Source: the human T2T-CHM13v2.0 reference genome, Homo sapiens. Taken from it: a stretch of 64,000 nucleotides of DNA. This document shows positions 12,305-12,672 of this stretch, piece after piece; positions within the stretch are counted from its first letter, which is position 1, and each line of letters begins with the position of its first letter. The notes under the pieces are model-generated. The model had not been told where the DNA came from. It saw only the letters and a list, made by a program, of their open reading frames with translations, and did not search any database. The DNA is taken from the NCBI RefSeq assembly GCF_009914755.1, contig NC_060932.1; one strand, given 5' to 3'. The position numbers and the translations under genes were made by a program.

Positions 12305-12672
12305 GGCCAGGCATGGTGGCTCATGCCTGTAATCCCAGGACTTTGGGAGGCTGAGGTGGGCGGGTCACCTGAGGTCAGGAGTTGGAGACCAGCCTGGCCA
12401 ACATGGTGAAACCCCGTCTCTACTAACAATACAAAAAGTAGCCAGGCATGGTGGTGGGCACCTGTGTTAGAAATACCAAAATTGCACCGATTATCTATTT
12501 CTAACAATTTTGGTATTTCTAACAACCTGTAATCCCAGCTACCTGGGAGGCTGAGGCAAGAGAATCACTTGAACCCAGGAGGCAGAGGTTGCAGTGAGCC
12601 GAGATTGCACCACTGCACTCCAGCCTGGGTGACAGAGCGAGACTCCATCTCAAAAAAATTAAAAAAAATAAA
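12305..12672 (+). mobile_element. AluS carrying a 60-bp insertion
   Basis: Dimer whose right arm is interrupted at gggcacctg|...|acctgtaatccc. Confidence 0.95.
12465..12524. mobile_element. 60-bp TG...CA element with 20-bp perfect TIRs and a 5-bp TSD (ACCTG)
   Basis: TGTTAGAAATACCAAAATTG (12465-12484) is the exact reverse complement of CAATTTTGGTATTTCTAACA (12505-12524). ACCTG lies at 12460-12464 and 12525-12529. Confidence 0.85.

What the first reader, a model, noticed from the sequence alone, without database searches (positions are those of the whole stretch)
12460..12529. 60-bp TG...CA mini-element with perfect 20-bp TIRs and a 5-bp TSD inside an AluS: possible minimal retroviral-integrase substrate
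Seen: ACCTG-[TGTTAGAAATACCAAAATTG CACCGATTATCTATTTCTAA CAATTTTGGTATTTCTAACA]-ACCTG interrupts an otherwise normal Alu right arm (gggcacctg|taatccc). The layout is 20/20/20 nt with zero TIR mismatches, and TATTTCTAACA is repeated internally (12496, 12514). Established: TG...CA ends with 4-6 bp TSDs are the signature of retroviral/LTR integrases and related DDE enzymes. hAT (8 bp), Tc1/mariner (TA), piggyBac (TTAA) and L1 TPRT (variable TSD plus poly-A) do not fit. The insertion must postdate its AluS host. Inference: the last 40 bp look like an LTR U5 terminus (I recall an ERVK LTR14-group end, unverified). The element could therefore be two copies of one att end joined head-to-head and integrated as a 'micro-provirus' or MITE-like unit, possibly one member of an unrecognised non-autonomous family.
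Basis: partly seen in the sequence, partly recalled or inferred. Interest (0 to 1): 0.85.

Follow-up and report, generated by a model that had tools for sequence, protein, structure and literature searches.

The report
Sixty-base scar with two retroviral U5 ends
A 60-base insertion inside an Alu carries the same end of an ancient retrovirus-like repeat at both of its tips, which most likely records a rare misfire of retroviral integration rather than a new family of mobile elements.

Summary
Window 12465-12524 is a 60-bp insert with perfect 20-bp inverted arms, flanked by ACCTG on both sides, and it interrupts an Alu right arm. The arms are the last 20 nt of the U5 end of a ~565-bp LTR family. 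On the + strand, 12485-12524 is the last 40 nt of that LTR in sense, and 12465-12484 is the reverse complement of the last 20 nt. Sense was fixed by a purine tract, a PBS-like site and the gag-pro-pol-env order in a related full-length provirus. The family is class I (gamma-like), not ERVK, and makes 5-bp target duplications. The composite is unique in the genome, so it is not a MITE-like family.

- **Best explanation (about 0.5):** an integrase joined two U5 ends of aberrant reverse transcripts to staggered cuts 5 bp apart, and host end-joining closed the middle. [quoted passage not shown]
- **Main rival (about 0.27):** a normal solo LTR was later reduced by a replication template switch with deletion.

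Primate orthologues would decide between them, and I could not examine them. It is a one-off curiosity of moderate interest.

The parts
12305..12459 (+). Host Alu, left monomer, A-rich linker and start of the right monomer, up to the insertion point
   Evidence: Rfam Metazoa_SRP 71.6 bits at 12306-12422; sequence read. The S-type subfamily call rests on recalled diagnostic positions only.
12460..12464 (.). Left copy of the 5-bp target-site duplication ACCTG (host Alu sequence)
   Evidence: Removing one copy plus the insert restores a continuous Alu.
12465..12484 (-). Left arm: reverse complement of the last 20 nt of the LTR (a U5 att end facing outwards, TG at the tip)
   Evidence: Perfect inverted repeat with 12505-12524. 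The same 20-mer ends 15 of 29 LTR copies. There are 16 further exact occurrences in the genome.
12485..12504 (+). Spacer: LTR U5 nucleotides -40 to -21 in sense, contiguous with the right arm
   Evidence: 12485-12524 equals the terminal 40 nt of LTR copies L011, L013, L019 and L026.
12505..12524 (+). Right arm: last 20 nt of the LTR U5 in sense, ending in CA (the att end)
   Evidence: In proviruses this end is followed by ATTT and then a TGG-initiated PBS-like site.
12525..12529 (.). Right copy of the 5-bp target-site duplication ACCTG
12530..12673 (+). Rest of the host Alu right monomer and its A-rich tail. The Alu's own ~14-nt duplication lies at about 12291-12304 and 12670-12683.
   Evidence: SRP match 12441-12653 spanning the insert. 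Flank repeat AAAAGGGAAGAAGG / AAAAGGAAGAAGGG read.

Best explanation
The insert is a fossil of an aberrant integration by a class I (gamma-like) endogenous retrovirus. Two U5 att ends, rather than one U3 and one U5 end, were joined by integrase to target phosphates staggered by 5 bp. This produced the ACCTG duplication.

The donors were very short or truncated reverse transcripts. Read on the window's minus strand, the whole 60 nt is what a self-primed minus-strand strong-stop DNA would be. It has the first 40 nt made from the tRNA primer (the U5 terminus inwards), followed by a fold-back copy of its own first 20 nt. Such a hairpin has a 20-bp stem that is a complete double-stranded U5 end.

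A particle holds two RNA genomes, so it could supply two such ends. Concerted strand transfer of two separate ends cuts the chromosome. Host hairpin opening and end-joining then sealed the distal ends, giving 20 + 20 + 20 nt with 1 nt of junctional overlap. A variant of this model is that longer head-to-head donors were integrated and the centre was later deleted.

Shown:
- the identity of both tips with the U5 terminus;
- the orientation of the family;
- the family's 5-bp duplications;
- that the composite is unique in the genome.

Inferred:
- that integrase acted on two U5 ends;
- the snap-back origin of the donors;
- the end-joining step.
For: 1. Both tips are the exact LTR terminus, TG/CA outwards. 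The 40-nt side is contiguous LTR sequence, matched exactly by 4 of 29 copies.
2. That terminus is U5. In the sense defined by gag-pro-pol-env in the related provirus L031, which is colinear with L009, the LTR ends ...TATTTCTAACA followed by ATTT and then TGGTGGC. The other LTR end is preceded by a purine tract. RNase_H then MLVIN_C lie in that sense in L009, and MLVIN_C in L010.
3. An LTR boundary of this kind exists only on reverse-transcribed DNA or at an integrated copy. Transcripts do not end there (established retrovirology).
4. The 5-bp duplication equals the family's own: 10 of 17 perfect and 6 of 17 at 4/5.
5. No trace of the U3 end (TGTAGAAAGT...) remains at the left junction beyond the shared TGT.
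6. In vitro precedent: the gammaretroviral Rev-A integrase concertedly joins two separate U5 oligonucleotide ends to a plasmid. 26 of the clones listed had a 5-bp duplication, and the product is a cut target (PMC3790719, passages).
7. [quoted passage not shown]
8. Head-to-head junctions in mammalian cells usually end up with asymmetric deletions (PMC8701086, passages).
Against: - It is a single instance, so no pattern can be tested.
- No orthologous or population data were available, so a full LTR ancestor at this site is not excluded.
- I found no report of same-end integration in vivo. One search listed only in vitro and structural work. In one search, none of the 20 listed of 25 papers was about integration of two like ends.
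- For HIV-1 integrase, very little concerted product was seen with donors under 200 bp, although half-site joining works at 20 bp (PMC8742673, passages).
- The fold-back has only 1 nt of overlap to prime it and would start from an abortive 40-41-nt product inside U5.
- In proviruses 4 nt, not the usual 2, separate the CA from the PBS-like site, so more than a dinucleotide would have to be trimmed.
- A contiguous 60-bp duplex is too short and stiff to present both ends to one intasome (inference). This forces the two-donor or later-deletion variants.
Confidence: 0.5

Rival explanations
1. Post-integration reduction. A normal solo LTR, or a provirus later reduced to a solo LTR, integrated here in + orientation with a 5-bp duplication. 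A replication template switch (four-point type 1-4-3-2, or MMBIR-like) then copied the reverse complement of the last 20 nt of U5 in place of the U3 start. It rejoined 40 nt from the end, deleting about 525 bp. Alternatively, a deletion was followed by quasi-palindrome correction.
For: - Template switches create perfect inverted repeats in human lineages, and type 1-4-3-2 is among those observed (PMC5453318, passages).
- The two LTR termini are naturally similar at the tip (TGTTAGAAA versus TGTAGAAAG). This gives a 3-nt microhomology (TGT) for the first jump and makes a flush end less of a coincidence.
- There is 1 nt of overlap at the return jump.
- Integration of a normal element needs no unusual enzymology.
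Against: - The switch must start within 3 nt of the LTR boundary and land exactly at the other terminus about 565 bp away. The model was formulated for events within a few tens of bp.
- No U3-specific base survives.
- Beyond the first 9 nt the two natural termini match at only about 13 of 20 positions (my count), so classic 'near-perfect to perfect' correction does not apply well.
- Three breakpoints happen to give a neat 20/20/20 layout.
Confidence: 0.27
2. Integrase-independent capture. A small snap-back cDNA with natural U5 ends was ligated by end-joining into a chance staggered chromosomal break, and fill-in of the break gave the 5-bp repeat.
For: - Natural cDNA ends would explain tips lying at the LTR boundary.
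- The first base of the right ACCTG could equally be the first spacer base (A) that follows CA in proviruses.
Against: - Unprocessed cDNA ends should keep the bases beyond CA (ATTT here), and neither tip clearly does.
- A duplication of exactly the family-typical length would be coincidence.
- A hairpin has only one free duplex end.
Confidence: 0.08
3. It is a miniature DNA transposon (MITE or foldback element) of an unrecognised family, moved by a DDE transposase.
For: The overall look: perfect terminal inverted repeats, TG...CA tips and a short duplication.
Against: - The junction 24-mer is unique in 3.1 Gb.
- No second opposed pair of the 20-mer lies close together among the 90 hits at up to 2 mismatches.
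- The arms and spacer are plain LTR U5 sequence shared with proviruses.
Confidence: 0.02
4. It is an assembly, sequencing or cloning artefact, or a private change of the sequenced cell line.
For: It is a single genome, and palindromic sequence can trouble some platforms (PMC8701086).
Against: - There is no match to plasmids or vectors.
- The content is endogenous LTR sequence with a family-typical duplication in an orderly Alu context.
- Nothing resembles an adapter.
Confidence: 0.03

Closest known systems
Solo LTRs and truncated LTR fragments of class I (gamma-like) endogenous retroviruses
   Same: The terminal sequence is identical to the family's U5 end, with TG/CA tips and the family's 5-bp target duplication.
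   Different: Only 40 nt of LTR are present, with no U3 or R. The left tip is a second, inverted U5 end instead of the U3 end.
In vitro concerted integration of two U5 oligonucleotide donors by purified integrases (Rev-A, MMTV, PFV assays; PMC3790719)
   Same: Two identical U5 ends on short separate DNAs, a gamma-type enzyme and a 5-bp duplication.
   Different: It is a test-tube reaction that leaves the target linear. Here the event would be in a germ line and the break would have been resealed by the host.
Self-primed minus-strand strong-stop DNA (PMC6088434)
   Same: A nascent minus strand that starts at the U5 terminus, folds back and copies itself. The window's minus strand reads exactly so.
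   Different: The described products arise in vitro from a stable hairpin at the 3' end of full-length strong-stop DNA and are dead ends. Here the fold-back is at nt 40-41 with 1 nt of overlap, and the product would have been integrated.
Short template-switch (four-point model) mutations (PMC5453318)
   Same: They create a perfect inverted copy of nearby sequence in one step, and type 1-4-3-2 fits the geometry.
   Different: They usually span tens of bp and have no reason to end flush with an LTR boundary and a target duplication.
MITEs and foldback DNA transposons
   Same: Short length, perfect terminal inverted repeats and a flanking duplication.
   Different: The insert is single copy. Its ends are retroviral LTR sequence, not transposase-bound repeats of a DNA transposon.
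Head-to-head transgene junctions stabilised by asymmetric deletion (PMC8701086)
   Same: Inverted duplex ends joined in the middle with an off-centre junction, 20 versus 40 nt.
   Different: Those are ligated injected DNAs without integrase-type ends or duplications.

Membership tests
LTR-retroelement integration product | Tips are the processed LTR ends (5'-TG ... CA-3') | tested here: met
   Both tips equal the LTR terminus to the last base.
LTR-retroelement integration product | Target-site duplication of the family's own length | tested here: met
   ACCTG/ACCTG here. In the family, 10 of 17 copies are perfect 5/5, 6 are 4/5 and 1 is ambiguous.
LTR-retroelement integration product | One U3 end and one U5 end bounding U3-R-U5 | tested here: not met
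   Both ends are U5. The U3 end TGTAGAAAGT... is absent, and only 40 nt of LTR are present.
   The related full-length provirus L031 has Gag_p30, MLVIN_C and TLV_coat. L009 and L010 have MLVIN_C. These are gamma-type markers.
   The family makes 5-bp duplications. Genus clusters come from the passages.
   No repeat library is on hand. The LTR-end strings occur in no searchable paper.
MITE / non-autonomous DNA transposon family | Several dispersed copies, each with terminal inverted repeats and its own duplication | tested here: not met
   The junction 24-mer has 1 exact hit, and its 3-mismatch hits are at control level. There is no other close opposed pair among the 90 hits.
Template-switch (four-point) mutation | A fragment that is the exact reverse complement of nearby sequence | tested here: met
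   12465-12484 is the reverse complement of 12505-12524, 20 of 20.
Template-switch (four-point) mutation | An ancestral sequence (outgroup) without the inverted copy, explained by one switch-and-return | not testable with these tools
   No primate genomes are available, and there is no paralogue of the locus in the genome.
Self-primed minus-strand strong-stop DNA | 5' end at the U5/PBS boundary, 3' part complementary to its own 5' part | tested here: met
   The window's minus strand is U5-complement nt 1-40 followed by the complement of nt 20-1.
Self-primed minus-strand strong-stop DNA | A stable hairpin at the priming 3' end | tested here: not met
   Only 1 nt of overlap (C) lies at the 40/41 junction.

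The most novel reading that the evidence does not exclude
Self-primed hairpins of abortive minus-strand strong-stop DNA, with stems of only 20 bp, served in a primate germ line as complete U5 att ends. Two of them were integrated in concert by a gamma-type integrase, and the hairpin-capped break was then opened and rejoined by the host. That would make this locus the first natural record of same-end (U5/U5) integration, and of a 20-bp minimal att substrate working in vivo.
Probability: 0.3. Interest if true: 0.65.

Novelty: new variant of a known kind. Interest (0 to 1): 0.5.

Why it matters
Retroviral integration is taught as a strict pairing of one U3 end and one U5 end of a full-length DNA. 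Same-end, short-donor reactions are known from the test tube. If they also happen in germ cells, they leave tiny scars that repeat annotation would list as stray LTR fragments or miss altogether. They would then be an unrecognised source of small insertions and hairpin-forming sequence.

This single locus cannot prove that. It does give an exact search image: two identical LTR tips facing outwards, with a family-typical duplication. That makes the question testable genome-wide. For this locus itself no function is indicated. It lies in an intron of an uncharacterised lncRNA and overlaps none of the listed enhancer intervals.

Tried and rejected
- **Wrong strand at first.** I took the LTR in the wrong sense and called the tips U3 ends. 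Pfam on that strand gave nothing: 0 families in 20 ORFs and 0 in 3 read-through frames. No PBS or purine tract fitted either. Reversing the sense resolved all of this.
- **Internally deleted solo LTR.** Rejected, because the other LTR end reads differently.
- **Vector or transposon end.** Rejected.
- **Known RNA family or miRNA for the hairpin.** None found, only Alu-derived models.
- **Unusual youth of the insert.** Its 60 nt are unchanged from the commonest state of the copies, but so are the terminal 20 nt in 15 of 29 copies and the terminal 40 nt in 4 of 29. That sample is partly biased towards exact 20-mers. No age signal follows.
- **Paralogous empty site.** None exists.
- **Mirror case, a U3/U3 mini-pair of this family.** Not seen among the 100 listed of 183 hits. 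83 hits were not listed, so this is incomplete.
- **Naming the family from print.** 0 papers hold the strings.
- **PBS type.** It looks to me like a tRNA-Ile type, from recall only. I did not test this.

Full report
**1. The observation**

Window 12460-12529 reads ACCTG, then a 60-bp insert, then ACCTG. The insert has three 20-nt parts:
- TGTTAGAAATACCAAAATTG
- CACCGATTATCTATTTCTAA
- CAATTTTGGTATTTCTAACA

The outer 20-mers are perfectly complementary (I1), and the inverted repeat stops exactly at the flanks. The 12-nt direct repeat at 12496 and 12514 is also present (D5).

The structure is far beyond chance. The window holds 2 matches of the 20-mer at up to 3 mismatches, against 0.00 expected in 100 shuffles. 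The hairpin folds at -17.7 kcal/mol, z = -10.6.

The host is an Alu. Rfam gives SRP 71.6 bits for the left arm, and a weaker SRP match for 12441-12653 spans the insert. Slicing out the 60 bp and one ACCTG gives a 40-mer that matches 6 other places in the window at up to 6 mismatches, against 0 for a swapped control. The duplication can formally be read as 6 nt (ACCTGT), because a T follows on both sides. With TG...CA ends it is 5 bp.

**2. What the arms are**

The 20-mer occurs 16 more times exactly in the window's own 3.1-Gb genome and 11 times with one mismatch. In every locus examined it is one terminus of a ~565-bp long terminal repeat.

The sequence next to it in those repeats continues exactly as in the insert. 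12485-12524 equals the terminal 40 nt of 4 of 29 compared copies, and of 7 of 29 if one CpG site is ignored. 15 of 29 copies keep the terminal 20-mer intact. That sample is partly biased, because seven loci were picked through an exact 20-mer.

The other LTR terminus reads differently (...ACTTTTTACTTTCTACA in the orientation). So the insert is not a solo LTR with a hole in the middle.

**3. Which end it is**

I first assumed the wrong sense and called the tips U3 ends. On that strand the 4.2-kb interior of the two proviruses looked empty. These are L009, whose LTRs are 92.4% identical, and L010, at about 90.5%. Searches found 0 Pfam families, and neither a primer-binding site nor a purine tract fitted.

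On the opposite strand everything falls into place:
- The LTR ends ...TATTTCTAACA, followed by ATTT and a TGG-initiated PBS-like sequence.
- The other LTR is preceded by ...AAAAGTAAAAGAGGAGGGAT.
- RNase_H (E = 1.4e-4) precedes MLVIN_C (E = 2.1e-4) in L009, and MLVIN_C recurs in L010 (E = 2.1e-3). These three hits are below Pfam's curated cut-offs.
- A related full-length provirus (L031) shows Gag_p30, RVP, RVT_1, RT_RNaseH_2, RNase_H, rve, MLVIN_C and TLV_coat in that order on the same strand. All of these except MLVIN_C score above the cut-offs.
- L031 is colinear with L009.

The family is therefore class I (gamma-like), and the 20-mer is the U5 att end. The recalled ERVK/LTR14 affinity is not supported.

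**4. The family's integration signature**

I read the flanks for the 17 copies where both can be judged. Ten have a perfect 5-bp duplication, six have 4 of 5, and one is ambiguous. The insert's ACCTG/ACCTG fits this.

According to passages of PMC3790719, duplication length clusters by genus:
- 4 bp for MLV and PFV;
- 5 bp for lentiviruses, and for the gammaretroviruses Rev-A and SNV;
- 6 bp for alpha-, beta- and deltaretroviruses.

Several copies, like the insert, sit inside Alus (L003, L033). LTR-LTR identities of 90-92% suggest activity some tens of millions of years ago. That estimate is a rough inference using recalled neutral rates.

**5. Not a family**

The 24-mer across the arm/spacer junction is unique in the genome. 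The only other hits carry 3 mismatches and are no more frequent than for the reversed control. Among all 90 hits to the 20-mer at up to 2 mismatches, no other opposed pair lies close together.

A search with the other LTR end showed no mirror-image mini-pair among the 100 listed of 183 hits, which is incomplete. There is no plasmid or vector match and no paralogue of the locus.

**6. Mechanism**

An LTR boundary is created only by reverse transcription (tRNA and purine-tract priming) or exists at an integrated copy. Two outward-facing copies of the same boundary, next to a duplication of the family's own length, therefore point to integrase acting on two U5 ends.

[quoted passage not shown] Self-priming of that DNA is a documented side reaction of reverse transcriptase (PMC6088434, passages). 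Such a hairpin offers a complete 20-bp double-stranded U5 end very early in reverse transcription, and a particle with two genomes can make two.

In vitro, Rev-A, MMTV and PFV integrases join two separate U5 oligonucleotide ends in concert. Rev-A did so with 5-bp duplications in 26 sequenced clones (PMC3790719). That reaction cuts the target. In a cell the two capped or free distal ends would have to be opened and joined by the host.

I worked through the strand polarities. Opening one hairpin at the 3' side of its loop and trimming the other reproduces the observed 20 + 20 + 20 order, with 1 nt of junctional overlap. This step is inference.

A variant is that longer head-to-head donors were integrated and the centre was later deleted. 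Such asymmetric deletions are typical of palindromic junctions in mouse germ line and cells (PMC8701086).

Points against:
- HIV-1 integrase made little concerted product with donors under 200 bp (PMC8742673).
- The fold-back has almost no priming homology.
- Four bases, not two, separate CA from the PBS-like site.
- I found no in vivo report of same-end integration.

**7. The main rival**

A normal solo LTR in + orientation could have been reduced by one replication template switch. In this model the nascent strand leaves after ACCTG-TGT, copies the reverse complement of the last 20 nt of U5 about 565 bp away, and returns 40 nt from the end.

Template switches do create perfect inverted repeats in human lineages, and the 1-4-3-2 geometry is observed (PMC5453318). 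The two LTR tips share TGT and AGAAA, which eases the first jump.

However, the event needs a long-range jump, two breakpoints that coincide with the LTR boundaries, and complete loss of U3-specific bases. I rate it about half as likely as aberrant integration. Only orthologous sequences can separate the two, and none were available.

**8. Verdict**

- The ERVK label and the 'family of mini-elements' are not supported.
- Whether the 60-bp unit itself was the integrated molecule remains open.

It is a new variant of a known kind, an LTR integration relic. It is of moderate interest mainly because it defines a searchable signature for same-end integration in genomes.

Noticed in passing
LTR copies L009 (5100-5180, minus strand), L032 (about 640-760); window 12496-12524: The U5 end of this LTR family carries a tandem duplication of 18 nt (TATTTCTAACAATTTTGG twice). 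The second copy runs into the PBS-like TGGTGGC. An internal pseudo-att site therefore lies 18 nt inside the real one, and 4 nt rather than 2 separate CA from the PBS-like site.
   Followed up: partly
L009 (G000:C2:119381000-119387200) and L010 (G000:C4:58826200-58832000): Both proviruses of the family have only about 4.2 kb between their LTRs, with remnants of RNase H and the integrase C-terminus. They are colinear with parts of a 9.3-kb gamma-like provirus (L031) whose LTRs are only 70-85% similar. The family looks like a deleted derivative mobilised in trans.
   Followed up: partly
G000:C7:99601542-99601561 (L034, about 700-720): An isolated 20-mer with one mismatch to the U5 end directly abuts the boundary of an Alu, with no further LTR similarity around it. 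It may be chance or another tiny U5-end fragment.
   Followed up: no
G000:C8:145249833-145253913: Two exact copies of the other LTR terminus lie on opposite strands about 4 kb apart, which means convergent LTRs. It could be two insertions or an inversion.
   Followed up: no
window 11900-12015: This stretch matches many overlapping positions in tandem-like arrays on several chromosomes at about 75-89% identity, for example C6:70278805-70279521 and C19:3308225-3308661. It is a dispersed, tandemly organised repeat just upstream of the Alu.
   Followed up: no
window 12141-12150: ACCAAAATTG, 10 nt of the left arm, also occurs about 325 bp upstream in unique sequence. I judged it a chance match of an A/T-rich word.
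   Followed up: no
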